64,000 nucleotides of DNA. It comes from Dehalococcoidia bacterium (GTDB lineage Bacteria; Chloroflexota; Dehalococcoidia; Lucifugimonadales; CAJWER01). Below are positions 1,092 to 62,566 of the stretch, in pieces. Below the pieces are notes generated by a model, which was not told the DNA's origin, ran no database searches, and worked only from the letters and a program-made list of their open reading frames with translations. A program made the translations under genes and the position numbers. The stretch covers positions 255,824-319,823 of the forward strand of contig CBDCTY010000002.1 in assembly GCA_965222445.1 (NCBI GenBank), in the 5' to 3' direction. Positions within the stretch are counted from its first letter, which is position 1; every line of letters begins with the position of its first letter.

Positions 1092-1215
1092 TACCAAGTC
1101 ACCGTGATGCCGCCGTATATGTGCGGCCAGGGAGTGGGTTCCCGCCCCGTATCGAGTACGGGGCAGGCTCTTCGCGGGAATGACGGCTTTACGGCGCGCT
1201 CAAAACGAAATGGTA
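1092..1215 (+). mobile_element. MITE-A, long form (124 bp), alpha hairpin
   Basis: TACCAAGTCACCGTGATGCCGCCGTATATG...core with CCCCGTA-TCGAG-TACGGGG...TACGGCGCGCTCAAAACGAAATGGTA. Flanked by TAA (1089-1091) and TAA (1216-1218). Confidence 0.9.
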
Positions 1216-1275
1216 TAACATTCCCTCTCACGGGGAAGGTGCAAGTCAGGGGGTAGCGACAAGAGGTCGCGGGGG

Positions 1276-2466
1276 CTACTGGCCCTCGCCGCCGCAGAGG
1301 ACCATCTGGGAGCCGTCGGCGTTGGTATGCACTTCGTAGGGCGTGCCCGCTAGATCGAAGACCAGCTTGTAGCCGGGGGTGATGACCTGGGCGTAGCCTT
1401 CACCCTCCTTGGGGCAGCCAAGGCTGGCGTCGGGCCATTGCACGCTCTCTGTGCTGTCGAGTATGAAGCCACGCTCGCCCACGCCGACCTCGTCGGCAAG
1501 CAGCTTCCGCGCCGCCGTCTCGATGCCGATCTCCTGGCACTTCGATTCGAGCTGGGCCAGCTGGGAGTCCTCGCTGCTGCCGGACGGAGCTTCCGCCGAC
1601 GTGACGGCGCTCTTCCTGATGTCGTCGAAGACCGACCCCAGGTCCGAGGACGAGCCTACGAACAAGGTATTCTCGGCGAGGTGCAGCCTGTAGGTCTCGA
1701 GGGAGCGCTGGAATGTGTAGAACTCGGGGTCCTGCTCCAGGGCGTCGGCGAATATCTTGACCGCCTCAGCCTCCCCGCACCCGCGGATGATGTCGGCGTC
1801 GCGCTGGGCCTCGGACCGTATGACCACGGCCTGCCTATCGACCGACGCGCGCTTCTCAAGGTCGGCCTTGGTGCCAGCGGCGCGCTCCCGGTCAGCGATG
1901 CGCTGGCGCTCGGCCTGCATCCTCTGGTAGATGCTGTTGGCGATCTCGCCGGGGAAGTCGGCGCGCTTCATTCGCACGTCCACTATCTGGATGCCGAAGT
2001 CCAGCAGCTTGGGCTCGACGGCGTCCCGCACACGGTTCATGACCAACTCGCGGCTCGTCTGAATGATCTCCGACTGGTCGTCGAGACCGATCTCCCGGCG
2101 GAGCTCGGACGCCACGATGTCGATGGCCCGGGAGGCCGCGCGGGACTCCGTCCTGAGCGTCTCCACGAACCTGAGCGGGTTGGTGATGCGCCCCCTGGCG
2201 TATACGTCGATCACGAGCCGCTTCTTGTCCTTAGTAAGCAGCGAGTCGGGCGGAGCGTCGAATACCAGGAGACGCCTGTCGAGATATGCGACGCGCTCGA
2301 TGAACGGCGTCTTGACGAAGAGCCCGGGGCGCTCGATCTGCCTGACCGGCTCGCCAAACCGGGTCACCACGGCAACCTGGGTCTCGTCGACCACGAAGAA
2401 TACCTGGGGGCCTACGATCCCCGCGGCCAGGACCGCGATCACTATTAGTGTTGCTATGAGTTTCAT
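1276..2466 (-). CDS. hflC: HflC-like SPFH/band-7 protease modulator with ~110-aa Cys-containing C-terminal extension
   Basis: N-terminal TM helix then SPFH domain (VVTRFGEP..., coiled Ala/Arg/Glu-rich region). Lies immediately downstream of hflK on the same strand. Confidence 0.8.
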   Translation of the reverse strand: MKLIATLIVIAVLAAGIVGPQVFFVVDETQVAVVTRFGEPVRQIERPGLFVKTPFIERVAYLDRRLLVFDAPPDSLLTKDKKRLVIDVYARGRITNPLRFVETLRTESRAASRAIDIVASELRREIGLDDQSEIIQTSRELVMNRVRDAVEPKLLDFGIQIVDVRMKRADFPGEIANSIYQRMQAERQRIADRERAAGTKADLEKRASVDRQAVVIRSEAQRDADIIRGCGEAEAVKIFADALEQDPEFYTFQRSLETYRLHLAENTLFVGSSSDLGSVFDDIRKSAVTSAEAPSGSSEDSQLAQLESKCQEIGIETAARKLLADEVGVGERGFILDSTESVQWPDASLGCPKEGEGYAQVITPGYKLVFDLAGTPYEVHTNADGSQMVLCGGEGQ

Positions 2467-2473
2467 CGGCCGC

Positions 2474-3490: not shown

Positions 3491-3571
3491 ACCGCTCCTG
3501 ATTATCGCCCCGCAGGTTCAACAACTATTCTAGCACACCACCGTCCGTCGAAAGTGTGAAGGCGGCCCAAT

Positions 3572-3629
3572 CCGTCGTTCCCGCGCAGAGCCTGCCCCCC
3601 CGAGCAGTCGGGGGCGGGAACCAATCCCC
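3572..3629 (-). repeat. Solo core hairpin module, reverse orientation (beta-like)
   Basis: CCGTCGTTCCCGCGCAGAGCCTGCCCCCCCGAGCAGTCGGGGGCGGGAACCAATCCCC is the reverse complement of the GGGTTCCCGCC-CCCCCGACTGCTCGGGGG-CAGGCTCT.CGCGGGAA.GACGG module. Confidence 0.75.
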
Positions 3630-3693
3630 GGCCGCCGCCATAAGATCTGGGCGGCCGAGCAATTCCATCAGTTGGTGGGGCTTCCCTGTCTTA

Positions 3694-3846
3694 TACCAAT
3701 TAGGTGTGATGCCGCCATATATCCATGAACCTGGTTGCTATGCCCTTCGACAGGATCAGGGCAGGTTTACGGCAGTGACCGGGGAAGGCGGGTTACAAAC
3801 CCGCCGCTACGATTTGAATTGACGGCGTAGTCAAAATGAATTGGTA
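3694..3846 (+). mobile_element. MITE-B (153 bp): same outer termini as MITE-A, different interior
   Basis: TACCAATTAGGTGTGATGCCGCCATATA...ACGGCGTAGTCAAAATGAATTGGTA. Shares both ends with the copy at 39253-39450. Flanks are TTA/TAA (discordant). Confidence 0.75.
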
Positions 3847-3935
3847 TAAGCTAGACGGCCCAGACTGAAACGCGCCCGTTCCAGACATGTCACCCCCGTG
3901 ATGTCATTCCGAATGCAGTGAGGAATCTAAGGGGT

Positions 3936-4244: not shown

Positions 4245-4252
4245 GGGCCTTA

Positions 4253-4352
4253 TACCAAGTCACCGTGATGCCGCCGTATATGTGCGGCCAGGGAGTGGGT
4301 TCCCGCCTTCGCGGGAATGACGGATTTACGGCGCGCTCAAAATAAATTGGTA
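4253..4352 (+). mobile_element. MITE-A, short form (100 bp, lacks inner hairpin)
   Basis: TACCAAGTCACCGTGATGCC...GGGTTCCCGCCTTCGCGGGAATGACGG...AAATTGGTA. Flanked by TTA (4250-4252) and TTA (4353-4355). Confidence 0.9.
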
Positions 4353-4416
4353 TTACTCCCAAGTTGGGGGACGTTATTGGTGTGGATTACCCTTCAATAC
4401 TAAGGGTATTGGACTG

Positions 4417-6726: not shown

Positions 6727-6887
6727 CCCGGGCTCTCGTCCTCTGTAGTATCGTCATTGGCGTCGGACCGGAGGGCGCATGACCCTGGACCATCGACGCG
6801 GGAAGCACCATGGCCTTGCGAAAGCCGCACAAGGGTATGATATGGGTGCTGCTGCCACACCCCGGCGTAGGCTAGGATCCAAGGGCC

Positions 6888-6944
6888 GGGGATGGGTTCC
6901 CGCCCCGTATCAAGTACGGGGCAGGCTCTTCGCGGGAACGACGG
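6888..6944 (+). repeat. Solo core hairpin module (alpha variant, loop TCAAG)
   Basis: GGGGATGGGTTCCCGCCCCGTATCAAGTACGGGGCAGGCTCTTCGCGGGAACGACGG. Possibly bounded by short inverted repeats GCCACACCCC (6853-6862) and GGGGCGTGGC (6947-6956). Confidence 0.8.
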
Positions 6945-6951
6945 ATGGGGC

Positions 6952-21321: not shown

Positions 21322-21474
21322 TTTGCGCTCTCCCTGAAGGCCCTCAACTTTGCCATGCTGAACCCTTCGGAGATGAATCACGCCCTGCTATTGTCCTCAA
21401 TCGGAGATAAACCCAAGGAGTCCATCAGGTGGGGGTCCCGTCTCTCTAGGCGGGTGAGGGCGAAAGCTTGTGCC

Positions 21475-22705: not shown

Positions 22706-22851
22706 CGTCCCGGCGCACTCATACCTGCTAAAATGGCGCCCACTCGCGCGGAAGGGGGGAAGCCGGGCTACCTCCTTGCCGAGTTCAGGTCTGTTGGAAC
22801 AGCCGGCGAATAGTACCCAACTACCGTGATGAAGGGCCCGGAGTAGACACT

Positions 22852-26301: not shown

Positions 26302-26527
26302 CAGCGGGTAACGTTGCTGCTCCATTGGCTATGTTCGCCAATTTCATTACGGCGCTGGCTCTCTTCGCGAAACCAGTCCCTATCTTCTAGCCCCACGCAT
26401 CAGCCCTTCTAGTGAATGGTGATGGGAGAAATGTTTGGTTGTGTGAGTATCTGAGATAGCCCCGGCAATTCAACCCAACACTGCTTTCCGACGTAAGTGA
26501 TCCTTGAATACCGAATCCTCCAACTAA

Positions 26528-26651
26528 TACCAAGTCACCGTGATGCCGCCGTATATGTGCGGCCAGGGAGTGGGTTCCCGCCCCGTATCGAGTACGGGGC
26601 AGGCTATTCGCGGGAATGACGGCTTTACGGCGCGCTCAAAACGAAATGGTA
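26528..26651 (+). mobile_element. MITE-A, long form (124 bp), alpha hairpin
   Basis: Near-identical to the 1092-1215 copy. Flanked by TAA (26525-26527) and TAA (26652-26654). Confidence 0.9.
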
Positions 26652-26726
26652 TAACGAGGTCTCGAGGCGTCCAGCCACACCCATACCTGCTAGAATGGCG
26701 CCCACTCGCGCGTAAGGGGAAATCGC

Positions 26727-28330: not shown

Positions 28331-28525
28331 GATACCTTGTCGAGGTATCGCCGGCTGCTCGGAGGGATCTTCGGCGAATCAGCCCTCAATACAGGAGCCG
28401 CGTAGAGACTGCCATTCATCAGCTGGCCCATGACCCGTATCCATACACGACCGCCAAGGTGCGAGGCCGGAGAGATACTGGCGACTTCGACTCGGGCCAC
28501 TCAGAATAATCTACGAAGTGTATAA

Positions 28526-28625
28526 TACCAAATCACCGTGATGCCGCCGTATATATGCGGCCAGGGAGTGGGTTCCCGCCTTCGCGGGAATGACGGCTTT
28601 ACGGCGCGCTCAAAATAAATTGGTA
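28526..28625 (+). mobile_element. MITE-A, short form (100 bp)
   Basis: TACCAAATCACCGTGATGCC...CCCGCCTTCGCGGGAATGACGG...AAATTGGTA. TAA on both sides; shares TAA 28626-28628 with the next copy. Confidence 0.9.
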
Positions 28626-28628
28626 TAA

Positions 28629-30935: not shown

Positions 30936-30959
30936 CCATTGGCGGACGATACGGTATAA

Positions 30960-31082
30960 TACCAATTTGGCGTGATGCCGCCATATATGTGCGGCTAGGG
31001 AGTGGGTTCCCGCCCCCGACTGCTCGGGGGCAGGCTCTTCGCGGGAATGACGGCTTTACGGCGCGCTCAAAATAAATTGGTA
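30960..31082 (+). mobile_element. MITE-A, long form (123 bp), beta hairpin
   Basis: TACCAATTTGGCGTGATGCCGCCATATATG...CCCCCGA-CTGC-TCGGGGG...AAATTGGTA. Flanked by TAA (30957-30959) and TAA (31083-31085). Confidence 0.9.
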
Positions 31083-31115
31083 TAATCCTCTTTCACAAGC
31101 TGGAGGAGTCCACAC

Positions 31116-34998: not shown

Positions 34999-35012
34999 TA
35001 ATGTCGGGCTTC

Positions 35013-36260
35013 TTACCAGGGGGGTGAGCGGCCGGGGTGCATGGAGTCCAGGGGTGCTGCCGAGGGGTCCGGTCCGTACCAGTGCTCCTTGAGCTTTTCC
35101 CTGATCCTGCGCTCGGTGGGGGTGAGCTGGGGAGAGTTTCCAGTTTCCGGTTTTGAGTTTTTGGTGGAGGCCCGGGGCGATTCGTGGGGCGGCCCTACGA
35201 TCAATCTCATGCCAGACCTCTTGCGGGCGAGCCTGTCCTCGAGGTCGGTGTCGTCGAACGTCTGGTAGGCGTTTCCGTGGCCCACAATGAGGTCGGGGGA
35301 GATGTAATGAGAGACTCCGTCCTCGTCCACCTCGAACGGGCCCTGCTCGTCGAAGGCGTAGACGGCGCCGGTGATCTCATCGCGTGCGAACTTGCAGCGG
35401 GTTATGTGGCGCGAGTCGTAGTTGGCCCGTTCGATTTCCTCGATGGTGATGGGTGGGAAGTTCCTGGTTTTTGGTTTTGGGCTCACCGCTGAGGGCGCAG
35501 AGGGAGGGTTCTTGGTTTCTGGTTCTGGGTTTCTAGTGGAGACCGAGGGCGTTTCGGCCGAGGGGACGGGATGGGTTCCCGACTTCTCGGGAACGACGGA
35601 TAGGGAGCCGGGCTCGGGGTGAGCGGGGTTGGGATGGGAGCCACGCCCCGCGCCGCCCCTCTGGGTTCCCCGTATCGAGTACGGGGCAGGCTCTGCCTTC
35701 GCAGGAACGACGGGGGTGTTGTCGTTGGTGATGTAGCCGGATAGCTCTTTGGCGGCTTCCATGCGGTGGTGGGGCTTGAAGCCCAGGAGTGTGCCGTGCA
35801 TGACGCCGGCCAGGAAGTAGACGATGGAGCGGCCGTCGCCGGTCTCCTCGCGGACGAGCTGCTGAAGCCTGCGCCGGAAGGGGTTGGGTCCGCGAGAGAC
35901 GTCCTCGCTTCGCTCGGGCGGGCTGCTCTTTATGGGGGAGCGGCGCACGGGGAGCACGCTGGTGCCACGGTACGAAGGGCGGCACTGGGCGTTGTAGTAC
36001 TTCTGCAGGTACCTGGCGACGAGTCCGGGGGCGATCTTGTCGAGTCGCCTGGCGGCGGACATGCGGTGTCGGTCCTCGAAGCCCTCGAGGCTGCCGTCGG
36101 CGACGCCGAGGTAGAACTCGGCGATGAGGCGTCCGTTGTCGGTGACCTCGCGGACGATTTCCGCCATGGTGGGCGGTCTGTTCTGTTGTGTTGCCACGCT
36201 CATGTGTTCTAGTATATCAGGCGTGTCAAGGGGGGGGAAGGATTCACCCGGATTCCCCAC
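35013..36260 (-). CDS. Hypothetical protein with two tandem ~40-aa N-terminal repeats, repeat-derived low-complexity linker and unknown C-terminal domain (start uncertain)
   Basis: Internal repeat IVREVTDNGRLIAEFYLGVADGSLEGFEDRHRMSAARRL / LVREETGDGRSIVYFLAGVMHGTLLGFKPHHRMEAAKEL supports coding. The central part is encoded through two core modules (35568-35599, 35661-35713). Confidence 0.5.
   Translation of the reverse strand: MGNPGESFPPLDTPDILEHMSVATQQNRPPTMAEIVREVTDNGRLIAEFYLGVADGSLEGFEDRHRMSAARRLDKIAPGLVARYLQKYYNAQCRPSYRGTSVLPVRRSPIKSSPPERSEDVSRGPNPFRRRLQQLVREETGDGRSIVYFLAGVMHGTLLGFKPHHRMEAAKELSGYITNDNTPVVPAKAEPAPYSIRGTQRGGAGRGSHPNPAHPEPGSLSVVPEKSGTHPVPSAETPSVSTRNPEPETKNPPSAPSAVSPKPKTRNFPPITIEEIERANYDSRHITRCKFARDEITGAVYAFDEQGPFEVDEDGVSHYISPDLIVGHGNAYQTFDDTDLEDRLARKRSGMRLIVGPPHESPRASTKNSKPETGNSPQLTPTERRIREKLKEHWYGPDPSAAPLDSMHPGRSPPW
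35568..35599 (+). repeat. Solo short core module inside an ORF
   Basis: GGGATGGGTTCCCGA-CTTC-TCGGGAACGACGG (8-bp stem GTTCCCGA/TCGGGAAC). Confidence 0.7.
35661..35713 (+). repeat. Solo core module (alpha hairpin, degenerate outer stem) inside an ORF
   Basis: CTGGGTTCCCCGTATCGAGTACGGGGCAGGCTCTGCCTTCGCAGGAACGACGGG. Confidence 0.7.
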
Positions 36261-36388
36261 CTGATTTGCACGGGCGGCGTGACGGACTGCCTCTGAGGCT
36301 ATGGCTGTGCACCTTGCCGGGGATGAGTTCCCGCCCCCGACTGCTCGGGGGCAGGCTCTTCGCGGGAATGACGGAGGTGGGGAATTTG
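36249..36388 (+). mobile_element. Family-D TIR element (~140 bp) carrying a beta core module
   Basis: Termini GATTCCCCACCT (36251-36262) and AGGTGGGGAAT (36375-36385). 9-bp direct repeat GGATTCACC at 36240-36248 and 36389-36397. Homologous to 39501-39641. Confidence 0.75.
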
Positions 36389-36632
36389 GGATTCACCGCA
36401 GAGGACGTCCTTCGGCAGGCCCTTCGACAAGCTCAGGACGGGCTCAGGACAGGCGCCGGGCACAGAGAGGAGGAGTTATGGGGAAGAGGGGAATGGCCGA
36501 AGCAGGATTCCCAGGATCGGGGGATTATCGGCATTGGGAGGGACTGGAGCAGTTGTAGGGAAGCCGGCAAGGGCATCTGCCGGTTGGCACGTTGGGTCGA
36601 GCAGGTTCGGCCGTCCCCTCGATGTTGGCGTG

Positions 36633-36699: not shown

Positions 36700-36828
36700 A
36701 CGTTCGCATGAGATTGCCGGGCCGGGGGATTGACAGACTGGTGGGCGGTCTTCTATCATTGAAGCAGTCGACAGGGCCCCTACCGGTTGGCTCGTTGGGT
36801 CAAGCAGACCCAGTCGGCTCCTGCCTAA

Positions 36829-37575: not shown

Positions 37576-37626
37576 TCCTGACGATCAGTAAGTCCCGCTG
37601 ATAGTCTTGGCCTACAAGCGTGAATC

Positions 37627-39210: not shown

Positions 39211-39252
39211 CAGAAGGAGACACTCCAATGCCCCTGACCCATCTCGAAATAA

Positions 39253-39450
39253 TACCAATTAGGTGTGATGCCGCCATATAAGGGCTGAAGGAGGTGCCCG
39301 GCTTGCCCATAGCCACCCGGTCTGTGTGCAACCGCCGGGGACTGGATGGGGGACGGTTCCTGCGGGGCAGGAATCCCGGTTCAAGGCCGGAATGACGGAT
39401 TGCTGAACTGCGTCACGTTCAATTCACGGCGTAGTCAAAACGAAATGGTA
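39253..39450 (+). mobile_element. MITE-B (198 bp)
   Basis: TACCAATTAGGTGTGATGCCGCCATATA...ACGGCGTAGTCAAAACGAAATGGTA. Shares both ends with 3694-3846. Flanks TAA/TTA (discordant). Confidence 0.75.
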
Positions 39451-39500
39451 TTAGACAGGTGAGATGGCTGTATCCCAAATGTCAATACAACCTGGGGATC

Positions 39501-39641
39501 CCAGATCCACCACCTAATTTGGACGGGCGGCGTGACGGACTGCCTCTGAGGCTATGGCTGTGCACCTTGCCAGGGATGGGTTCCCGCCCCCGACTGCTCG
39601 GGGGCAGGCTCTTCGCGGGAATGACGGAGGTGGGGGATTTG
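39501..39641 (+). mobile_element. Family-D TIR element carrying a beta core module
   Basis: GATCCACCACCT...GACGGGCGGCGTGACGGACTGCCTCTGAGGCTATGGCTGTGCACCTTGCC...core...AGGTGGGGGATTTG. About 90% identical to 36249-36388. Confidence 0.7.
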
Positions 39642-39651
39642 GGGGGATGAC

Positions 39652-39869
39652 CAGGGCCTTTCCAAAGTCGTCACAATGCCATATCGTCACAATGCCATAA
39701 GAGGGGGATCTGGGAAATCCCTTCTCCCTCGGTGGGAGAAGGTTAGGATGAGGGTGACTGACTTGTATCGGTCAACGCCCCCTCACCCCCGTATCGAGTA
39801 CGGGGCAGGCTCTAACCCTCTCCCGCGAAGGGGCCCGCGAAGGGGAGAGGGAACTTTGGAAAGGCCCTA
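39652..39869 (+). mobile_element. Family-C TIR element (218 bp), complete copy
   Basis: Termini CAGGGCCTTTCCAAAGT and ACTTTGGAAAGGCCCTA match 16 of 17 as inverted repeats. 9-bp direct repeat GGGGATGAC at 39643-39651 and 39870-39878. Contains the alpha hairpin at 39787-39805 and the empty TTA site at 39743-39745. Confidence 0.8.
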
Positions 39870-39928
39870 GGGGATGACGCCCAAGGTCTGAATCGGTGTA
39901 CCATAGGCTTGGAGAGTGAGGAGGGAAT

Positions 39929-40480: not shown

Positions 40481-40564
40481 GTATTCTCAACACGGGCAGG
40501 TGATGGGAGTCGCCAGAACCCAACGGCCTCTGGTGTACTGGCCCCGTATCCGGACATTGTGAGA

Positions 40565-40620
40565 GGGATGGATTCCCGCCCCGTATCGAGTACGGGGCAG
40601 GCTCTGCGCGGGAATGACGG
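40565..40620 (+). repeat. Solo core module (alpha hairpin)
   Basis: GGGATGGATTCCCGCCCCGTATCGAGTACGGGGCAGGCTCTGCGCGGGAATGACGG. Confidence 0.8.
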
Positions 40621-40741
40621 ATTGGATGGTATGCGCCTGTAGAGAATACCCTTCGAGTAGAGCATAAACCGCATCCCAGTACGAATGCGCCGCCCGGCGG
40701 AATCCTGTGACGTGCGGACGCCGTGAACCTGTCCCAGATTA

Positions 40742-40865
40742 TACCAAGTCACCGTGATGCCGCCGTATATGTGCGGCCAGGGAGTGGGTTCCCGCCCCGT
40801 ATCGAGTACGGGGCAGGCTCTTCGCGGGAATGACGGCTTTACGGCGCGCTCACAATGAATTGGTA
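40742..40865 (+). mobile_element. MITE-A, long form (124 bp), alpha hairpin
   Basis: Flanked by TTA (40739-40741) and TTA (40866-40868). Confidence 0.9.
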
Positions 40866-40893
40866 TTAGTAGGCGGCGATCCACATCCACCCC

Positions 40894-40922
40894 TGGATTC
40901 CGGCTTTCGCCGGAATGACGGG
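40894..40922 (+). repeat. Solo short core module, compensatory variant
   Basis: CTGGATTCCGGC-TTTC-GCCGGAATGACGG. The stem TTCCGGC/GCCGGAA replaces TTCCCGC/GCGGGAA. Confidence 0.65.
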
Positions 40923-41109
40923 TGAGTAGTGCCTACCAATTTGGGACAGCATCGGACGCCGTCAGGAATTTGACAGGCCGCCGTCCAAACGGTACATTGG
41001 CCCGACTTCTTCCCCGCCCGCTGGATTGTGGCTTCGGTCATGTCCCTGGGCGGGTGTTTTTATGCGTGCCATCATGGTCTGGACGACAGCAGTAGAAGGA
41101 GAACCGCCA

Positions 41110-43511: not shown

Positions 43512-44077
43512 CTACACCACCACCGCCAGGGATCTCGTAGACGCCAGCCCCAAGGGCCGCCCGCGGGAAGCCAACCTTCGCCGGGCCGTCAGTACTGCTT
43601 ATACCAATTCACCGTGATGCCGCCGTATATGTGCGACCAGGGAGTGGGTTCCCGCCTTCGCGGGAATGACGGCTTTACGGCGCGTTCAAAATGAATTGGT
43701 ATTACTACGCGCTGTTCCACTGTCTGGCAGCCTGCTGCGCCGACATGCTGGTCGGTGGCGCAGGGGCCCGACGCAGCCAGCCGGCGTGGAGGCAAGTGTA
43801 TCGGGCGTTGCAGCACGGGCCTGCGAGAAAGCGTTGCGAGCGCCAGAACATGATCTCGAGATTTCCGGGCGAAATCCAGGATCTTGCGAACCTGTTCGTC
43901 CGTATGCAGAAAGAGCGTCACCGCGCTGACTATGACCCCGACGCTGTTTTCTACAAGACTTACGTGCGCGTTCGTATTGCCCAAGCATCGATTCTCATAA
44001 AGCGCTTCAACAGAGTTCCCGCAAAGGACCGGCGCGCCTTCGCGGTCTACGTCCTGCTGGACATCAGGGGCGACTAG
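43498..44077 (+). pseudogene. HEPN-like protein gene interrupted by a short MITE-A
   Basis: The 5' part (43498-43601) reads ...ASPKGRPREANLRRAVSTAY. The 3' part (43705-44077) reads YALFHCLAACCADMLVGG...MQKERHRADYDPDAVFY.... Removing 43602-43704 (element plus one TTA) joins them in frame as ...AVSTAYYALFH.... Confidence 0.65.
43602..43701 (+). mobile_element. MITE-A, short form (100 bp)
   Basis: TACCAATTCACCGTGATGCC...CCCGCCTTCGCGGGAATGACGG...GAATTGGTA. Flanked by TTA (43599-43601) and TTA (43702-43704). Confidence 0.9.
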
Positions 44078-46035: not shown

Positions 46036-46074
46036 ACCGCCTCCGTTTTCGCGTCCAGAGACCCTTGCGTAACC

Positions 46075-46365
46075 CAGGGCCTTTCCAAAGTCGTCACAAT
46101 GCCATAAGAGGGGATCTGGGAAATCCCTTCTCCCTCGATGGGAGAAGGTTATACCAAGTCACCGTGACGCCGCCGTATATGTGCGGCCAGGGAGTGGGTT
46201 CCCGCCCCGTATCGAGTACGGGGCAGGCTCTTCGAGGGAATGACGGCTTTACGGCGCGCTCAAAATAAATTGGTATTAGGATGAGGATGACTGGACTTGT
46301 ATCGGTTGACGCCCCCTCACCCCCGTATCGAGTACGGGGCAGGCTTTTCGCCGGAATGACGAGGT
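46075..46365 (+). mobile_element. Family-C element, right end missing or diverged, with MITE-A nested inside
   Basis: Starts CAGGGCCTTTCCAAAGTCGTCACAATGCCATAAGAGG. Colinear with 39652-39810 except for the MITE-A insertion at 46152-46275. The alpha hairpin lies at 46321-46339. Confidence 0.7.
46152..46275 (+). mobile_element. MITE-A, long form (124 bp), alpha hairpin, nested in family-C element
   Basis: Flanked by TTA (46149-46151) and TTA (46276-46278). The homologous uninterrupted site is GAAGGTTAGGATG at 39738-39750. Confidence 0.92.
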
Positions 46366-47207
46366 TGTGCGAGGTCTCCATCCACCGGGCGTATCGGAAG
46401 GCCCCGGCTGCTGAGGTATTCCTTCACTTCGGCCACCCTCAGCTTGCCGAAATGGAAGATGCTGGCGGCCAGCACCGCGTCGGCCTTACCGGTGCTCGCA
46501 GCCTCGTAGAGGTGCTCTGCCTCTCCCGCGCCGCCGCTGGCGATGACCGGCACGTCTACAGCTTCGGATATCTCGCGGAGCAGCTCCAGGTCGTACCCGG
46601 TCTGCTGACCGTCGGTGTCCATACTCGTTACCAGGAGCTCGCCCGCGCCTAGATCGGCTGCGCGTACTGCCCACCGTACAGCGTCCACTCCGGTGGGCCT
46701 CCTTCCGCCGTGGGTGTAGACCTCCCACACGGAGTCCTCGTCCAGGGCAAGGCTGGTGTCGGCGGGCGTCGGCGAAGCCTCGGTGGCATCCTCCAAACCG
46801 GGGGCGACTCGCTTCACGTCCATCGCTACGACGATGCACTGGCATCCGAAGTGGTCCGACGCCTCCGCGATTAGGCTAGGATCCCGGACAGCGGCCGTAT
46901 TTAGAGATACCTTGTCCGCCCCGGCCTCCAGCAGGCCCCTCACGTCCTCGACCGAGCGGACGCCTCCACCCACCGTCAGGGGTATGAATACCCGCTCGGA
47001 GACCTGCTTGAGCACGTCCATCATGATCTCGCGCGAGTCGGAGCTGGCCGTGATGTCCAGGAACACCAGCTCGTCCGCGCCCTCTCGATCATAGAAGGCC
47101 GCAAGCTCGGCCGGGTCGCCTGCGTCCCTGATGTCGACGAAGCTGACGCCCTTGACGACGCGCCCCCGGTCGACATCCAGGCACGGAATGATCCTCTTGG
47201 TCAGCAT
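46317..47207 (-). CDS. hisF: Imidazole glycerol phosphate synthase cyclase subunit, with repeat-derived ~20-aa C-terminal tail
   Basis: [20 protein letters not shown]...RDAGDP...A..Y...[13 protein letters not shown]. The last residues, ...[15 protein letters not shown], are encoded by the family-C/core repeat. Confidence 0.85.
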
Positions 47208-51877: not shown

Positions 51878-52084
51878 TCGGGCACCCGGCTACCGCCACA
51901 AGTCGCCGGGCATGATACGTCTCATGAACCCGTCGAACATGGGGACGGTAAATGAAGTATCTCCATGACTTGGGCTCCATATCATGCCCTTCTCGATCAG
52001 TTGGCTGCGAGTGGGAGCCAGAGACGTTACGCGGCGGCCCAGAACACCGGCAATATCGCCCGAGCGATGAGGCCCGGCGCCTAG

Positions 52085-52897
52085 GGCCTGTTCACACTAA
52101 TTAACCAGATCATGTTACAATCCGGGAATGGAAATCACAGAAGCTCAGTACCAACTTATTGCACCGATCCTTCCCGTTCAACGTGGCAACGTCAGCTTGC
52201 CGAACCTGCAAGTTCTCAACGCCATCTTGTATGTCGCCGAGCAGGGCTGCAAGTGGCGGGGGTTGCCGCCTCGATTTGGCAACTGGCACACTGTATACAT
52301 GCGGATGAACCGTTGGTCAAAGAATGGGGTGCTCGACCGGATATTCGAATATCTGCAACGAGAGCAGATAGTGCGCATCAAGCTCGAGGCGGTTTCGATG
52401 GACAGCACCATCGTCAAGGTCCATCCCGATGGTACGGGTGCGTTAAAAAAAACGGACCCCAGGCCATCGGCAAGTCCCGTGGCGGTTGGACCACCAAGAT
52501 TCATATGGTTGCCGCGGATGCTAGAACAGCCGTAACGTTCTCCCTCTCTCCCGGACAGGCCCACGACGCGCCAGAGGGGCGGAAGTTGTTGACACGCCTT
52601 GGCTCACAGGGCCAGAAGCCGTTCCTGATAATGGACCGGGCATACGAGGGGAATGAGACCCGCCAACTGGCGTTGGCGCTGGGGTTCACGCCGGTTGTTC
52701 CGCCCCTGAGCACCCGAGTTGACCCTTGGGAGTACGACCGGGAGATGTACAAGAGGCGGAACGAAATCGAGCGGTTGTTCCGTCGGTTGAAGGGGTTTCG
52801 TCGCATCTTCTCTCGCTTTGAGAAGCTCGACACGCTCTTCCTCGGGTTCATCCTGTTTGCCCTCATCTTCGATGCGCTACGTTAGTGTGAACAGGCC
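52085..52897 (+). mobile_element. IS5-family insertion sequence (813 bp)
   Basis: Perfect 16-bp terminal inverted repeats GGCCTGTTCACACTAA (52085-52100) and TTAGTGTGAACAGGCC (52882-52897). Flanked by CTAG on both sides (52081-52084, 52898-52901). Confidence 0.9.
52128..52885 (+). CDS. IS5-family transposase (DUF4096-type N-terminus + DDE), two frames joined by predicted -1 frameshift
   Basis: orfA reads MEITEAQYQLIAPILP...LNAILYVAEQGCKWRGLP..FGNWHTVY.RMNRW. orfB reads ...GGWTTKIHMVAD...LIMDRAYEGNETR...RNEIERLFRRLKGFRRI. The frames overlap at an A8 run (52445-52452), and orfB is in the -1 frame. Confidence 0.85.
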
Positions 52898-53901
52898 CTA
52901 GTTGGGCCATGGCTCGAAGGTATATCTTCTCTGCGGGGGTAAGCCGGTCAAACCTGACCCGGAAGAAGCTCTCGTCGAGGTCGGCGACGGCCTGGCGGGA
53001 AGCGTCCTCTACATCCACCTCTGTGATGGGAGAGCTCTCGGCCATGTCCCACACATGCTTCCCCCACTCCTGCAGGAAGTATGGATAGCATTGGGTTTGG
53101 GAAACGATGGCGTCGAGTGCGCGGGGCTCTATCCGCACCCCTTCGTCTTTCGCGGGCTTGGCAATCGCAAGCCTGGCGTCTTCAGGTGACAGCGCTCCGA
53201 TCTCAGTGAACTCGAATAGCCTCTCGGCGTAAGATTTGGCTCTCCCCACGCGGCCCCGCACCTGGGGCAGTCCCGCCCCAACCATGGTCACGGGGAGCCG
53301 ACGCTGAGATGTCCGGTGCAATGCCGTGATCAATGCCGCGAGCTCTTCCTCCTTCACATATTGGAACTCGTCGATGAAAAGCGTCAGGCAGCTTTCGTCC
53401 GCCCTAGCGGCATTTCCGACAACCTCGAGCAAGTCCTGCAGGTCGGCTTCCAGGTCGCCGTTGTCGGCTAAGCCGGGTTCAGGTTCGAAGTCCAGTCCGA
53501 CTTCGATGTCCTGAAACTTCACCTTCAGAGCTCCGGCAAAGCCGGCAAGTCCTCGAAGAGCTCGCTGCGCCAGCTGCTTTGCGGCCTCTCTATTCGAGAG
53601 CTTCAGCAAGGCCAGACGTAGCTGGGGCGCCAAAGTCGCGGGTAGGGAGCGGCCTTCAGGCGCTTCGATCCGCAGGGCACAGATGCCGTTCGCCTCGGCG
53701 TCCTCTCGGATACGGTCCAGCAGCACAGTCTTCCCAACGCCCCGCAGACCCACCATCATCACGCCCTTGCTGGGGCGCCCGATCCTGGTCCTCTCCAGTG
53801 CGATCCGCGCGGTCTCGCGAACCTCGTGGCGGCCGGCCAGCTCTGGGGGCTGTGTGCCGGCTCCTGGCGCATATGGGTTGCGAATCGGGTCCATGGGGTC
53901 G

Positions 53902-53929
53902 ATTATAGGGAGTTTATCCCAGTTTACAA
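53902..53929 (-). promoter_or_regulatory. Sigma-70-like promoter for the ATPase gene (possibly leaderless transcript)
   Basis: Reverse strand: TTGTAA, 16 nt, TATAAT, then 7 nt before the ATG at 53894. Confidence 0.35.
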
Positions 53930-54084
53930 GGAAAGCCTAATATGGCTAACTTTGCTATAAATGGTCGGAACGGGCGGTAGAGGTCGGCGATTGGGAGGGA
54001 GTTTACCCCAGTTTACAAGAAAGCCCTAACATGGCTAACTTTGCTATAAATGGTCAGAACGGGCGGTAGCGGTTGGTGATCGGC
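53908..54084. repeat. Tandem ~89-bp duplication including the last codons of nadE
   Basis: Unit 1 (53908-53996) and unit 2 (53997-54084) both read GGGAGTTTA.CCCAGTTTACAAG.AAAGCC.TAA.ATGGCTAACTTTGCTATAAATGGTC.GAACGGGCGGTAG.... Unit 2 holds the true nadE 3' end. Confidence 0.85.
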
Positions 54085-58235: not shown

Positions 58236-58243
58236 CCTACACA

Positions 58244-58380
58244 CGGGGCCTTTCCAAAGTTGGCTCCCTGCGGAAGGGACATACCCTACCGCCCACCTGG
58301 ATTCCCGCCCCCGACTTCTCGGGGGCAGGCTCTGCGCGGGAATGACGGTATGTGGTTTATGGGACAATGGAAAGGCCCTG
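58244..58380 (+). mobile_element. Family-C TIR element (137 bp) with beta-type core, inserted in the proB-proA spacer
   Basis: Termini CGGGGCCTTTCCAAAG and CAATGGAAAGGCCCTG. Direct repeat GACCTACACA (extendable to 15 bp GACCTACACACGGGG) at 58234-58243 and 58381-58390. Core at 58298-58348. Confidence 0.75.
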
Positions 58381-58406
58381 GACCTACACACGGGGAGCGT
58401 GAACAG

Positions 58407-59753: not shown

Positions 59754-60068
59754 ATGGCAAGATTCTTCTTCGAACGAGAGTGCAGGACCCCGTATTCAGA
59801 GTGTTACACGGTCCTGGACGACGACGATCCAATAGGCCGCGTGGACATACACTTCGCCGAGGTGATGATCCACTCCACGGTGAGCATCGGCGAGAGCCTC
59901 ACGAACGACGACATCCAGGACCTGATCGACGCAATCGACCGTGAGCTGCTGGACGCTATGGGCATCGTAAAGCAGGAGCTCGTGATCCACGTGCACCAGG
60001 GGCGCGACCTGGGCGTCTTCACCACGCGGGGCTTCGAGGGCAACGGCGGCCACGAGCGCCTGAACTAA
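59754..60068 (+). CDS. Hypothetical protein (104 aa)
   Basis: MARFFFERECRTPYSECYTVLDDDDPIGRVDIHFAE.... Its TAA stop (60066-60068) doubles as the left target duplication of the following MITE. Confidence 0.45.
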   Translation: MARFFFERECRTPYSECYTVLDDDDPIGRVDIHFAEVMIHSTVSIGESLTNDDIQDLIDAIDRELLDAMGIVKQELVIHVHQGRDLGVFTTRGFEGNGGHERLN

Positions 60069-60191
60069 TACCAGTTCGCTGTGATGCCGCCGTATATGTG
60101 CGGCCAGGGAGTGGGTTCCCGCCCCCGACTGCTCGGGGGCAGGCTCTTCGCGGGAATGACGGCTTTACGGCGCGCTCAAAACGAAAAGGTA
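60069..60191 (+). mobile_element. MITE-A, long form (123 bp), beta hairpin
   Basis: TACCAGTTCGCTGTGATGCC...CCCCCGACTGCTCGGGGG...GAAAAGGTA. TAA on both sides; shares TAA 60192-60194 with the next copy. Confidence 0.9.
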
Positions 60192-60194
60192 TAA

Positions 60195-60317
60195 TACCAA
60201 GTCACCGTGATGCCGCCGTATATGTGTGGCCAAGGAGTGGGTTCCCGCCCCCGACTGCTCGGGGGCAGGCTCTTCGCGGGAATGACGGCTTTACGGCGCG
60301 CTCAAAACGAAATGGTA
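60195..60317 (+). mobile_element. MITE-A, long form (123 bp), beta hairpin
   Basis: Head-to-tail with the previous copy. Flanked by TAA (60192-60194) and TAA (60318-60320). Confidence 0.9.
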
Positions 60318-60347
60318 TAACTCCCCGCTTGGGCTGAGCGCCGGGCA

Positions 60348-62357
60348 TCAGGACGCGTGGACGAAGAGCCCCACCCTGCGCCACAGGTCCACTCCCTGCA
60401 GCCGCAGAGTGACGACCTCGCCGGAGGCGACAGATCTCGGCAGCTCCGCCCGGACGCGGAAGGGGAACTCCACCAGCTCCAGGAGCGCGGTGCGGCGGCC
60501 TCCGCTGTCCAGCACGACCGCCTCGAACAGGTCCGGGCCGCCTGGAGGCATCCGCGCGCCCTCGAGATACTTCAGGAACCAGTACCTCTTCCGCCCCTCC
60601 TCGATCCTCGACAGCTCCCTCATCTGCACCTCGGCCCGCTGTGCGACCGATTCCACCTCGTCCGGCGCGTACAGGGGTTTGCCATCGGCCAGGAAACCGC
60701 CAATCTGCCGCTGTACGATCAGGTCGGGGTAGCGCCTCAGAGGGGACGTCGCCTGGAGATACGCGCTCACGCCGAGCCCATCGTGCGCCATCGGCTCCGT
60801 GGATACTCGCGCCGCCTGCATCCGTCGGGCGACGCTGTAGCGCGTCATAAGCGGCGTGGCCCGCTCGTCGAGCCCAGACAGGCCCGGCATGTCCGAAAGG
60901 TCCGGGCGCCGCTGGGACCGGTACACGGCGGGCAGCCCGTTCTCGGAGCAGAACCGGGCAAGGAGCGAGTTGCACAGTATCATCAGCTCGGCCACTATCT
61001 GATTGCCGGGCGACGAGCGGTCCCGCAGGCTGACCTCGACCTCCCCCGACGCCCGGACCTTGACGCTCATCTCATGCTGGTCTATGTTGACGGCCCCCTG
61101 CTTCTCGCGCTTGAGTCGAAGGGCGTTGGCTAGGCGGCACAGCCCCTCGATCATCGGGCGCCGGCGCCCCCCTGTCTGCACCACCGCATCGACCTCCTCG
61201 TATGAGAGGGCCGCGGCGCTCCTGATCGTCGACGGCACCACATGCCAGCTAGACACGTCTCCTTCTCCGGTCAACTCCGCAACCAAGCTGACCGCCAGCC
61301 GCTCCTCGCCCGGGTCCAGGCTTCCCGCGCCCCTCGTAAGGGCATCGGGAAGCATCGGTATGGTGCGCTCCGGGAGGTAGAGGCTCGCCATGCGCCGGTC
61401 CGCCTCCCGGTCCATCGGCCCCGCTCGAGGCGCAAGCGCCCCCGCGTCCGCGATGTGCACTCCGAGCCGGTAGCCGGACTCCAGGACCTCCAGGGAGAGG
61501 GCGTCGTCCCTGTCGGTCGTCTCCTCGTCGTCGATCGTGACCGCGTCGAGGTGGGTGAGGTCCTCCCTGTCCGACCCGCTCGGCGCGAAGGCCGCGGCTA
61601 TTGCCTGTCCCTCCTCCAGCGCCTCGGACGGGAAGTCCGAACGAATCCCCGCCCTTCGGAGCTCCAGGGACTCGTCCGGGCCGAATACGCCGGAGCTCAC
61701 CAGCATCTCGAAGCAGGCACGCTGGAGGTCGCGAGTCGCCGGCGACGACGCCTCCACCAGCTCTCTGGCCACCCTGCGGCGGGGAAGGTCCTCGCCGTGG
61801 ACGGCGTAGCCGACCAGCACATCGACCAGGGACTCCTGGTGGGGGCTCATAGCCTCGGGGAGCCGGCCTGCGGACATGGCATCGACCAGCCCCCGCGCGT
61901 CCCGCGCGTTCTCGGCCTCGCGCCGCCGCCTCTCCAGCAGGTTCTCATGGTCTTCCCGCGTTCGCGGCCTGTACTTCCCCGTGCCGCTCAAGAAGAGGTC
62001 GGTCGCTCGTTCTAGGCAGAGGAGCAGCGCCGTGAGTTCCAGGGCCCCCGGACTCGCTGGCCAGTAGAGCTCGGCCAGATCCTCCAGCGAGGACTCCTCC
62101 TGCTCGTCGGTAAGGACGTCCCACACCTCTGAGAGGTCGATCTCACTGGATGCGTCCCTGGCGTTGTCGCAAAACTCCTCGAAGCGCTCCGCCTCATCCG
62201 CCAGAACGCCGGTAGTGAGCATGACCCGCTCGGAAGGAATTCGGGCAACCTTATTCCTACCGAGGAGAACGGAAACTCGCCCGTTCCGCTCTTCACGGAA
62301 ACGGACGATTGTCACCCCACCACTCAGGCGGGCAACTAGGATTTCGCCCGGAAGCAT
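60348..62357 (-). CDS. rnr: RNB-domain 3'-5' exoribonuclease (RNase R/RNase II family)
   Basis: 669 aa with the RNB catalytic block (AVTIDDEETTDRDDALSLE), later RNB motifs and a C-terminal S1-like region. Confidence 0.8.
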   Translation of the reverse strand: MLPGEILVARLSGGVTIVRFREERNGRVSVLLGRNKVARIPSERVMLTTGVLADEAERFEEFCDNARDASSEIDLSEVWDVLTDEQEESSLEDLAELYWPASPGALELTALLLCLERATDLFLSGTGKYRPRTREDHENLLERRRREAENARDARGLVDAMSAGRLPEAMSPHQESLVDVLVGYAVHGEDLPRRRVARELVEASSPATRDLQRACFEMLVSSGVFGPDESLELRRAGIRSDFPSEALEEGQAIAAAFAPSGSDREDLTHLDAVTIDDEETTDRDDALSLEVLESGYRLGVHIADAGALAPRAGPMDREADRRMASLYLPERTIPMLPDALTRGAGSLDPGEERLAVSLVAELTGEGDVSSWHVVPSTIRSAAALSYEEVDAVVQTGGRRRPMIEGLCRLANALRLKREKQGAVNIDQHEMSVKVRASGEVEVSLRDRSSPGNQIVAELMILCNSLLARFCSENGLPAVYRSQRRPDLSDMPGLSGLDERATPLMTRYSVARRMQAARVSTEPMAHDGLGVSAYLQATSPLRRYPDLIVQRQIGGFLADGKPLYAPDEVESVAQRAEVQMRELSRIEEGRKRYWFLKYLEGARMPPGGPDLFEAVVLDSGGRRTALLELVEFPFRVRAELPRSVASGEVVTLRLQGVDLWRRVGLFVHAS

Positions 62358-62440
62358 AGTCCCTCGATTCTAGCATCCTGCCCGAAGTGGGGAGAGATCA
62401 GGCGGGGGGCTCTTACCTCTTCCCCGAGGGGGAAGACTGA

Positions 62441-62563
62441 TACCAATTTGGCGTGATGCCGCCATATATGTGCGGCCAGGGAGTGGGTTCCCGCCCCCGA
62501 CTGCTCGGGGGCAGGCTCTTCGCGGGAATGACGGCTTTACGGTGCGCTCAAAATGAATTGGTA
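62441..62563 (+). mobile_element. MITE-A, long form (123 bp), beta hairpin
   Basis: TACCAATTTGGCGTGATGCCGCCATATATG...GAATTGGTA. Flanked by TGA (62438-62440) and TGA (62564-62566). Confidence 0.9.
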
Positions 62564-62566
62564 TGA

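What the first reader, a model, noticed from the sequence alone, without database searches (positions are those of the whole stretch)
1092..62563. All 21 TIR-bounded repeat copies share one orientation regardless of flanking gene direction
Every MITE-A/B copy (16), every family-C copy (39652, 46075, 58244) and both family-D copies (36249, 39501) read in the same direction on the + strand. The neighbouring genes lie on both strands. For example, 1092 sits between minus-strand ybeY and hflC, and 30960 sits between plus-strand hyuA and hyuB. No reverse-oriented copy is visible: the peptide signature PHIYGGITVTWY appears only in minus-strand ORFs of the track.

If orientation were random, 21 copies all agreeing has probability 2^-20. 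Cut-and-paste DDE transposition is not expected to be strand-polar. Polarity tied to the chromosome strand rather than to transcription is known for ssDNA transposons of the IS200/IS605 type and for replication-oriented motifs. This suggests replication-coupled insertion or selection for a strand-specific function. Solo core modules are less strict (5 plus, 2 minus).
Basis: partly seen in the sequence, partly recalled or inferred. Interest (0 to 1): 0.78.

Follow-up and report, generated by a model that had tools for sequence, protein, structure and literature searches.

The report
One-way IS630-derived MITEs carrying REP hairpin
A recently amplified 131-base miniature transposon, built from insertion-sequence ends around a widely conserved hairpin, points the same way at all 16 sites in this window whatever its neighbouring genes do, and in a sister genome its direction tracks DNA strand composition over long domains, which points to a link with replication that is not yet proven.

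Summary
All 16 A/B copies lie on the + strand. So do the C and D copies and all but one of the other core hairpins (21 + to 1 −). Neighbouring genes lie on both strands.

The repeat is a true MITE. It has TACCAAnT inverted ends and a 3-bp TNA duplication, identical on both sides in 66 of 77 copies. A relative supplies a clean empty site. Both ends derive from the right end of a 1.17-kb IS630-family element. They flank a REP-like hairpin of the CGTC type, which also occurs in other MITE families, solo, and in 57 unrelated metagenome contigs.

Insertions are recent: relatives about 90–94% identical in DNA lack them.

In a sister MAG the orientation is mixed genome-wide (28 + / 42 −) but forms long same-direction domains. 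It is unrelated to gene direction (165 co-oriented, 166 anti-oriented genes). It tracks gene-strand-corrected GC3 skew (b = 0.043, run-level p = 0.01).

The window's own skew is weakly opposite. ori and ter could not be mapped.

Replication-linked polarity is therefore the best explanation, at moderate confidence. Whether it arises at insertion or through the hairpin module is open. Orientation bias of insertion sequences relative to replication is already known, so I rate this a new variant of a known kind.

The parts
1089..1219 (+). MITE-A copy (131 nt; TSD TAA/TAA), between two minus-strand genes (ybeY, SPFH/Band 7)
   Evidence: nhmmer 155 bits; sequence; Pfam
3691..3850 (+). Element with A-type ends but a different interior and no core hairpin
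   Evidence: 31 bits, model positions 2-132
4250..4356 (+). MITE-B copy (107 nt; simple REP-like hairpin, no inner hairpin; TSD TTA/TTA)
26525..26655 (+). MITE-A copy, shared with the sister MAG (L067:4975)
28523..28628 (+). MITE-B copy, shared with the sister MAG; head-to-tail with the next copy and sharing one TAA
28626..28756 (+). MITE-A copy, specific to the window (absent from the MAG)
30957..31086 (+). MITE-A' copy between hyuA and Uma2/hyuB; a clean empty site (GGTA-TAA-TCC) exists in relative L066
34872..35002 (+). MITE-A copy, specific to the window (absent from the MAG and the other relatives), between convergent genes
39250..39454 (+). Element with A-type ends and a different interior
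40739..40869 (+). MITE-A copy upstream of the plus-strand Abhydrolase_10 gene
43599..43705 (+). MITE-B copy
46149..46278 (+). MITE-A copy nested inside a family-C element, between minus-strand his genes; the site is empty in L064
48020..48149 (+). MITE-A copy
60066..60195 (+). MITE-A' copy, head-to-tail with the next copy
60192..60321 (+). MITE-A' copy
62438..62566 (+). MITE-A' copy (TSD TGA/TGA), between two minus-strand genes
36247..36390 (+). Family-D MITE (ends about GGATTCCCCACCT / AGGTGGGGAAT) carrying the same core hairpin
   Evidence: (D13)
39500..39643 (+). Family-D MITE, second copy (94% identical)
39651..39871 (+). Family-C MITE (TIR AGGGCCTTTCCAAAGT) carrying only the inner hairpin plus CAGGCTC
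   Evidence: (D16, D18)
46074..46380 (+). Family-C element (right end not intact) with the nested MITE-A
58243..58381 (+). Family-C-type TIR element with the full core
   Evidence: (D16, I15)
6883..6950 (+). Solo core hairpin (REP-like plus inner hairpin)
35562..35713 (+). Two solo core hairpins inside the 415-aa minus-strand ORF
40559..40626 (+). Solo core hairpin
40884..40930 (+). Solo short REP-like hairpin with a compensatory stem variant (TTCCGGC/GCCGGAA)
3566..3635 (-). The only reversed core hairpin in the window
   Evidence: (I3-I25)
52083..52904 (+). IS5-family insertion sequence (DUF4096 + DDE_Tnp_1). Its TIR GGGCCTGTTCACAC resembles the family-C TIR. It is 98% identical to a copy in relative L069

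Best explanation
The repeat is a non-autonomous transposon (MITE). It consists of two inverted copies of the right end of an IS630-family insertion sequence, flanking a REP-like hairpin of the CGTC type that carries a second hairpin in its loop. It inserts at C|TNA|G sites and duplicates TNA. It amplified recently in this lineage.

Its one-way orientation is most likely set relative to the replication fork, not relative to genes. The strand on which the hairpin pairs with G·T wobbles tends to lie on the G-rich strand, which is the lagging-strand template. Orientation therefore stays constant over long chromosomal domains and flips between them.

Two sub-mechanisms remain open:
(a) Fork-coupled insertion, as proposed for transposases that bind replisome parts.
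(b) A strand-specific property of the shared hairpin module, read as single-stranded DNA, which allows or retains only one orientation.

I lean slightly towards (b). The two ends of the MITE are near-equivalent, so the hairpin is its main asymmetric part. Unrelated MITE families and solo hairpins also share the polarity.

Shown: anatomy, mobility, recency, independence from genes, domain structure and the skew association. Inferred: the link to replication, and its mechanism.
For: Anatomy and mobility:
- TIRs and a TNA duplication identical on both sides in 66 of 77 copies; palindromic target.
- Empty site in L066.
- Relatives at about 90–94% DNA identity lack the copies.
- Insertions are polymorphic between the window and the sister MAG.

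Parent element:
- L066:260-1436 has the same termini and encodes HTH_23/29/32 + DDE_3.
- Both MITE ends match the IS right end.

Polarity:
- 16 of 16 copies in the window are +; cores are 21 + to 1 −.
- No relation to flanking genes.
- In the sister MAG, same-orientation domains of hundreds of kb: contig_7 (CBDHCU010000009.1; printed 'contig 9') is all + over 187–491 kb and 18 − / 3 + over 537–1356 kb. contig_5 is 13 − / 3 + once the two extra copies from L067 are added.
- Pairs closer than 50 kb share orientation 72–74% of the time against 52% expected.

Skew:
- GC3 skew = −0.085 × gene strand + 0.042 × MITE orientation (± 0.013 by block and domain bootstrap).
- Run-level sign-flip test gives p = 0.010.
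- A/B copies alone give b = 0.035 ± 0.0105.

Hairpin strand:
- Compensatory stem variants, and a G·T base pair on the + strand in 140 of 177 cores.
- One-sided changes across metagenome copies are wobbles on that same strand.

Shared polarity:
- Families C, D and solo cores are + in the window.
- Non-A cores agree with neighbouring A/B copies 21:11 to 24:12 in the MAG.

Precedent: IS orientation bias relative to local GC skew (PMC3971601).
Against: - The window's own gene-strand-corrected GC3 skew is −0.026 ± 0.017. That is weakly opposite to the rule seen in the MAG. The orthologous MAG blocks are exceptions too.
- There is no gene-strand bias relative to MITE orientation (165:166), although the organism may simply lack such a bias.
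- One MAG contig (contig_6, CBDHCU010000008.1; printed 'contig 8') shows at least three switches. Pairwise concordance falls to chance beyond about 150 kb. This needs rearrangements, or a domain-scale cause other than replichores.
- No KOPS-like skewed oligomer emerges when blocks are oriented by MITE direction.
- Other proxies for fork direction are split: the rpsP operon and gyrB are co-oriented, EF-Tu with a tRNA cluster is anti-oriented, and tRNA units run 5:3.
- At least one polymorphic MAG copy is reversed relative to its neighbours.
Confidence: 0.5

Rival explanations
1. Domain-scale coherence without replication. New copies arise mostly by short-range transposition from neighbouring copies and keep the donor's orientation, or whole blocks are inherited or rearranged together. 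Each region is then seeded by one founder with an arbitrary orientation.
For: - Concordance is strongest below 50 kb and decays to chance by 150–400 kb.
- Sub-variants cluster locally: three of the four A' copies lie at 60–62.5 kb.
- Head-to-tail pairs share one TSD.
- The window's skew does not fit the replication rule.
Against: - No known IS630/Tc1-type mechanism preserves orientation in local hops.
- Founder orientation would be random with respect to GC3 skew, yet the sign is associated at run level (p = 0.01).
- Unrelated MITE families and solo cores share the direction.
- Copies are mosaics of left, core and right variants rather than local clades.
Confidence: 0.25
2. Selection at the RNA level. 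The element acts in transcripts, for example as a stabiliser, terminator or small RNA, and is kept only in the sense orientation of a transcription unit.
For: - The hairpin uses G·U-compatible pairs on one strand.
- REPs are often thought to act as RNA (PMC3733652).
Against: - Orientation is unrelated to the direction of the upstream or downstream gene in the window and in the MAG.
- No Rfam family matches at gathering score, and only one chance-level match (E = 3.2) at the permissive threshold.
- Metagenome copies show no clear gene-relative orientation.
Confidence: 0.05
3. The A/B elements are single-strand (HUH, IS200/IS605- or RAYT-type) transposons. Their polarity is the classical lagging-strand-template bias.
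For: - The core is REP-like, and REPs are substrates of Y1 transposases (PMC3733652, PMC6006769).
- The polarity resembles that of IS200/IS605 (PMC3971601).
Against: - A/B copies have terminal inverted repeats, a 3-bp duplication of a palindromic target and a clean empty site. These are hallmarks of DDE transposition and are absent from IS200/IS605 elements.
- The termini match an IS630-family element.
- This reading may still apply to the solo cores, which were not analysed for insertion signatures.
Confidence: 0.05
4. Chance, or post-hoc selection of an unusually uniform window in a genome whose copies are oriented at random.
For: The window was picked because it looked striking. Genome-wide the sister MAG is mixed (28 + / 42 −).
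Against: - 16 of 16 has p = 3e-5, and there are also 10 + to 1 − independent cores.
- The MAG shows the same local coherence and long runs.
Confidence: 0.03

Closest known systems
IS630-family-derived bacterial MITEs (for example RUP of Streptococcus pneumoniae, attributed to IS630-Spn1; from my own knowledge)
   Same: Short and non-coding, with terminal inverted repeats matching an IS630-family element (HTH + DDE_3 transposase). Inserts at TA-containing targets, reaches high copy number, is mostly intergenic, and is polymorphic between close relatives.
   Different: - The duplication is 3 bp (TNA), not the canonical TA.
- Both ends derive from the IS right end.
- The interior is a REP-like hairpin shared with other MITE families.
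- Copies are strongly co-oriented over long domains, a property I know of no report of for such MITEs.
Replication-related orientation bias of insertion sequences (Gomez et al. 2014, PMC3971601)
   Same: Element orientation correlates with the local GC-skew sign rather than with neighbouring genes. The authors argue the bias arises at insertion. IS630 is listed as showing 'mixed' bias, and IS5a as showing no clear trend in individual chromosomes (significant overall in Firmicutes).
   Different: - That survey scored full-length ISs by transposase direction. MITEs were not examined, and no biased family was found outside Proteobacteria, Actinobacteria and Firmicutes.
- Here the polar object has near-equivalent ends and no transposase gene.
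- Several unrelated families share the direction.
CGTC-tagged REP elements (Di Nocera et al. 2013, PMC3733652; includes Neisseria dRS3 and Rickettsia RPE)
   Same: Read on the minus strand, the core is CGTC-A-TTCCCGC-GAAG-GCGGGAA-C-CCA. It has the CGTC head, a stem of about 8 bp, a 4-nt loop and a CCA tail, as described for CGTC-1. No dedicated transposase is evident. It can sit inside genes, and it occurs across many unrelated contigs.
   Different: - In most copies the loop is expanded by a second, covarying hairpin plus CAGGCTC.
- In this lineage it occurs as singletons carried inside MITEs, all pointing one way, rather than as head-to-head dimers.
- The paper does not list Chloroflexi as hosts of CGTC repeats.
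IS200/IS605 elements and their miniature derivatives
   Same: Strong strand polarity relative to the fork, and dependence on hairpins formed in single-stranded DNA.
   Different: Those elements have no terminal inverted repeats and make no target duplication. The A/B copies have both, so they are not members. Only the way the polarity might work is comparable.

Membership tests
Bacterial MITE | Short non-coding element bounded by terminal inverted repeats | tested here: met
   107–131 nt; ends TACCAAnT.../...AnTTGGTA with subterminal GCCGTA; only repeat-derived ORFs
Bacterial MITE | Target-site duplication and recoverable empty sites | tested here: met
   TNA identical on both sides in 66 of 77 copies. 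Empty site GGTA-TAA-TCC in L066 against the filled site at window 30957
Bacterial MITE | Autonomous partner with matching ends | tested here: met
   L066:260-1436 has termini TAATACCATTT/AAATGGTATTA, a right subterminal match of 26 identical bases across 31 alignment columns, and encodes HTH_23/29/32 + DDE_3. It lies in a relative, not in the window, and its reading frame is split
IS630 / Tc1-mariner derivatives | Duplication of a TA dinucleotide | tested here: not met
   The duplication is TNA, including TGA/TGA ×3 and TCA/TCA ×2, which a TA model cannot explain
IS200/IS605-type single-strand transposons | No TIRs, no target duplication, insertion 3' of a fixed tetra- or pentanucleotide | tested here: not met
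   TIRs and a 3-bp TSD are present, and the target is palindromic (C|TNA|G)
CGTC-type REP (PMC3733652) | CGTC head, 8–9-bp stem starting with A/T pairs, 4–5-nt loop, short CCA tail | tested here: met
   MITE-B core on the minus strand reads CGTC-ATTCCCGC-GAAG-GCGGGAAC-CCA. The first stem pair is A·C (G·T on the other strand) in 140 of 177 cores, A-T in 20 and G-C in 12. In the A form the loop is expanded
CGTC-type REP (PMC3733652) | Mostly arranged as head-to-head dimers | tested here: not met
   Singletons in the window and the MAG. In many metagenome contigs a second CGTC hairpin lies about 25 nt upstream in the opposite sense, or the unit forms a long palindrome
Replication-oriented mobile elements (sense of PMC3971601) | Orientation correlates with local GC-skew sign independently of gene direction | tested here: inconclusive
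   Met in the sister MAG (b = 0.043; p = 0.001 by bootstrap, 0.010 by run-level sign flip). Not met in the window itself (−0.026 ± 0.017)
Replication-oriented mobile elements (sense of PMC3971601) | Orientation switches at ori and ter | not testable with these tools
   Only 63 8-kb blocks of the MAG and 64 kb of the window are held. No dnaA, dnaN or parB was found in them
Polar chromosome motifs (KOPS/Chi-like) | A short oligomer strongly skewed towards one strand along the replichore | tested here: not met
   With blocks oriented by MITE direction and repeats masked, no 8-mer and no 7-mer exceeds z of about 4.3, which is chance level for the number tested. The one 6-mer above that, GGTGGG (218:111, z = 5.9), overlaps the family-D end (AGGTGGGG) and is probably unmasked repeat copies, not a KOPS-like motif

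The most novel reading that the evidence does not exclude
The widely conserved CGTC-type hairpin module is itself the polar determinant. It is read as a single-stranded DNA hairpin on the lagging-strand template. It therefore imposes replication-strand polarity on any transposon that carries it. This would explain why unrelated MITE families (IS630-like, IS5-like and others) have each captured the same module, and why they all point the same way.
Probability: 0.2. Interest if true: 0.8.

Novelty: new variant of a known kind. Interest (0 to 1): 0.58.

Why it matters
If the polarity is truly tied to replication, these abundant young MITEs would mark current fork direction in a lineage whose GC skew and gene-strand bias are weak. 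That would help map ori, ter and recent inversions in uncultured Chloroflexota-like genomes.

It would also extend replication-oriented transposition from full-length ISs in a few phyla to non-autonomous elements in a poorly studied phylum.

The shared hairpin offers a handle on the long-standing question of what CGTC-type REPs do and how they spread without a dedicated transposase.

Tried and rejected
- Rfam, at gathering score on the whole window and at the permissive threshold on 39.2–40.9 kb: no family matches the elements. No tRNA genes lie in the window.
- KOPS/Chi-like skewed k-mers after orienting blocks by MITE direction: none.
- Gene-direction explanation: rejected.
- Asymmetric target motif that could dictate orientation: the target is palindromic.
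- Age difference between copies that conform to their domain and exceptions, using profile score as a proxy: none (149 against 150 bits).
- Markers of ori or ter in the held loci (DnaA, ParB, FtsK motifs): none. Only gyrB and a XerC-like gene turned up.
- tRNA, EF-Tu and rpsP as proxies for fork direction: split and uninformative.
- Exact look-up of a window protein: not on record. The window's genome itself is not in the collections; the best HydB hit is 98% identical.
- JGI metagenome scan for the MITE-A end: no hits.
- TA-duplication model for the TSD: rejected by the TGA and TCA cases.


Full report

Yes. Repeat finding and a profile built from the copies (nhmmer) give 16 end-to-end copies of one element, all on the + strand. 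They start at 1089, 3691, 4250, 26525, 28523, 28626, 30957, 34872, 39250, 40739, 43599, 46149, 48020, 60066, 60192 and 62438.

Eleven are about 131 nt (A and A'). Three are 107 nt (B). Two have the same ends but a different interior (3691 and 39250). No full-length copy lies on the − strand, which has a two-sided probability of 3e-5.

The two D copies and the three C-type elements are also in the + sense. Using the asymmetric right flank of the shared core hairpin, I count 21 cores on + and one real one on − at 3566. The inner-hairpin tail GGGGCAGGCT occurs exactly 18 times on + and once on −.

A gene map based on codon-position GC and Pfam shows flanking genes on both strands. Five copies lie between two minus-strand genes. 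At least three lie between plus-strand genes. Four lie between convergent genes.

**2. What the element is**

The ends are imperfect inverted repeats (TACCAAnT... / ...AnTTGGTA). I pooled copies from the window and a sister genome. The three bases outside the ends are T-N-A and identical on both sides in 66 of 77 copies: TAA 38, TTA 23, TGA 3 and TCA 2. The wider target is palindromic, roughly C|TNA|G.

A relative supplies a clean empty site. L066 reads GGTA-TAA-TCC exactly where the window has GGTA-TAA-[element]-TAA-TCC. These are hallmarks of DDE-type transposition. They exclude an IS200/IS605-type mechanism for these copies.

A 1.17-kb element in relative L066 (positions 260–1436) has the same termini. 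It encodes HTH_23/29/32 and DDE_3 domains, which is an IS630-family transposase. Both ends of the MITE resemble the right end of that IS. The MITE is therefore two inverted right ends around an unrelated core. The 3-bp duplication differs from the canonical TA of IS630.

**3. The core**

Read on the minus strand, the core of the B form is CGTC-ATTCCCGC-GAAG-GCGGGAAC-CCA. This matches the published description of CGTC-1 REPs: a CGTC head, an 8-bp stem, a 4-nt loop and a CCA tail (PMC3733652).

In the A form the loop holds a second hairpin plus CAGGCTC. That hairpin comes in two covarying versions, CCCCGTATCGAGTACGGGG and CCCCCGACTGCTCGGGGG.

Across 177 cores from the window and related loci, the outer stem shows compensatory double changes: TTCCGGC/GCCGGAA, TACCCGC/GCGGGTA and TTCCCGA/TCGGGAA. 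Its basal pair is G·T on the + strand in 140 cases, A-T in 20 and G-C in 12. On the other strand the common form would be an A·C mismatch. The + strand is therefore the one that folds best.

The same core sits in family D, in a C-type element, in a further family seen in the sister genome (TIR GTGTTGACATTT), and solo. The inner hairpin alone sits in family C.

A 27-nt core pattern occurs in 57 JGI metagenome contigs whose G+C ranges from 45 to 71%, at one or two copies per contig. The inner hairpin covaries across them, and one-sided changes are again wobbles on the same strand. The MITE-A end itself has no JGI hit. The core is thus an old, widespread module that several young MITEs have picked up.

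**4. Age**

Four syntenic loci were fetched through the HydB protein: L064, L065, L066 and L069. The HydB proteins are 95–98% identical to the window's, and the DNA about 90–94% identical. These loci lack nearly all the copies that the window carries between 26.5 and 48 kb.

The sister MAG CBDHCU01 is about 92% identical and is labelled Dehalococcoidia. It shares the copies at 26525, 28523 and 30957. It lacks those at 28626 and 34872. It has one extra copy, reversed, where the window has none. The family is therefore recently and probably still active.

**5. Does orientation follow replication?**

It returned 63 8-kb blocks, almost all from CBDHCU01, with contig coordinates. Contig names below are the assembly's own (contig_1, contig_5, contig_6, contig_7 = GenBank CBDHCU010000001..07..08..09). 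The tables print the last digit of the GenBank accession instead, so their 'contig 7', 'contig 8' and 'contig 9' are contig_5, contig_6 and contig_7 here.

- Genome-wide the orientation there is mixed, 28 + against 42 −.
- It is arranged in long runs. contig_7 is all + from 187 to 491 kb and 18 − / 3 + from 537 to 1356 kb.
- contig_5 is 13 − / 3 + over 148–712 kb, once the two extra copies seen in L067 are added.
- contig_6 has several switches.
- Pairs closer than 50 kb agree in 72–74% of cases against 52% expected. Beyond about 150 kb agreement is at chance.
- Orientation is unrelated to flanking genes: ++ 9, −− 10, +− 11, −+ 8; 165 co-oriented against 166 anti-oriented genes.
- It is related to strand composition. 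In a regression of third-codon-position GC skew, the gene-strand term is −0.085 and the MITE-orientation term is +0.042 ± 0.013 by block and domain bootstrap.
- Flipping whole runs at random gives p = 0.010. A/B copies alone give 0.035 ± 0.0105.

The + strand of the element therefore tends to be the G-rich strand. By the usual convention this is the leading-strand sequence, which is physically the lagging-strand template.

**6. Evidence against**

- The window itself has a corrected GC3 skew of −0.026 ± 0.017, the wrong sign though weak. The orthologous MAG blocks behave the same way.
- No skewed KOPS-like oligomer appears.
- Other proxies for fork direction are split.
- Several switches on one contig require inversions or a different cause.

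One reading reconciles these points. Young insertions report the current fork direction, whereas GC3 skew reports long-term history, so a segment inverted before the burst would disagree. I cannot test this reading here.

If each copy follows its domain with probability about 0.85, as in the MAG, a run of 16 of 16 has a probability of about 0.07. The window is then at the strong end of the same phenomenon, not something different.

**7. Mechanism**

Replication-linked polarity explains four things: gene independence, long domains, the skew association, and the sharing of direction by unrelated families.

Two routes are possible. The first is fork-coupled insertion, as argued for many IS families by Gomez et al. 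(PMC3971601). The second is a strand-specific property of the hairpin module.

The second route gains weight from three points:
- The MITE's ends are near-equivalent.
- The one clearly asymmetric part is the core, whose pairing is better on one strand.
- Cores in other contexts share the direction, 10 + to 1 − in the window and 21:11 to 24:12 in the MAG.

The first route gains weight from the two core-less elements with A-type ends, which are also +, and from how young the insertions are. I cannot separate the two routes with the data in reach.

**8. Comparison and novelty**

The element is a member of the MITE class, and by its ends is IS630-derived. It fails the TA-duplication criterion. It is not an IS200/IS605-type element. 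Its core fits the CGTC-REP description but not the usual dimer arrangement.

Orientation bias of ISs relative to replication is known, including for DDE families. A strongly one-way MITE whose direction is shared by other MITE families through a common REP-like module is not something I found described. I rate it a new variant of a known kind, of moderate to good interest. Its value depends on a whole-genome test that is simple to run once complete contigs are available.

Noticed in passing
window 52083-52904 (+): An intact-looking IS5-family insertion sequence (DUF4096 + DDE_Tnp_1 in two frames, TIR GGGCCTGTTCACAC, flanked by CTAG). It is 98% identical to a copy in relative L069, while the neighbouring genes are only 83–91% identical. 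Its TIR resembles that of MITE family C.
   Followed up: partly
window 35013-40480: A lower-GC island of about 5.5 kb. It holds a 415-aa ORF with internal repeats and embedded core hairpins, DUF3800 and PIN_4 genes, and a second Uma2 copy. It is absent from relatives L064, L066 and L069 but present in the sister MAG. MITE copies lie close to both edges (34872–35002 and 40739–40869). After the island the MAG continues with rpsP-rimM instead of Abhydrolase_10, so this is a rearrangement breakpoint.
   Followed up: partly
L070-L126 (JGI metagenome contigs): The 27-nt core GGGGCAGGCTCTKCGCGGGAAYGACGG is found in 57 contigs with G+C from 45 to 71%. A second CGTC-type hairpin often lies about 25 nt upstream in the opposite sense, and sometimes the unit is a long perfect palindrome. 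The inner hairpin covaries. There is no Rfam family for it.
   Followed up: partly
window 46074-46380; L056 2403-2653: Nested MITEs: a MITE-A inside a family-C element in the window, and a core-less C-type element inside a MITE-A in the sister MAG.
   Followed up: no
window 22705-26719: A 4-kb segment encoding a Thr/Pro-rich repetitive protein (36- and 42-nt periodic repeats at 23.6–25.3 kb). It is bracketed by 53-nt direct repeats that are 89% identical (22705–22757 and 26667–26719). In relative L066 it is replaced by about 0.9 kb.
   Followed up: no
window 53907-54083: Two tandem 88-nt units (spaced 89 nt start to start), 89% identical, just upstream of the NAD synthase gene.
   Followed up: no
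L039 514-1014 (sister MAG), against window 21350-21385: A MAG-specific insertion cluster. It contains a MITE-A reversed relative to its neighbours, next to another MITE family (TIR GTGTTGACATTT) that carries the core in the regional direction. The same TIR bounds an IS5-like element in L064, at the site where the window has MITE-A 30957.
   Followed up: partly
window 31117-31666 and 39930-40480: Two paralogous Uma2-family (putative restriction endonuclease) genes, 73% identical in DNA, both on the + strand. Each sits just upstream of a conserved gene, and each has a MITE copy nearby.
   Followed up: no
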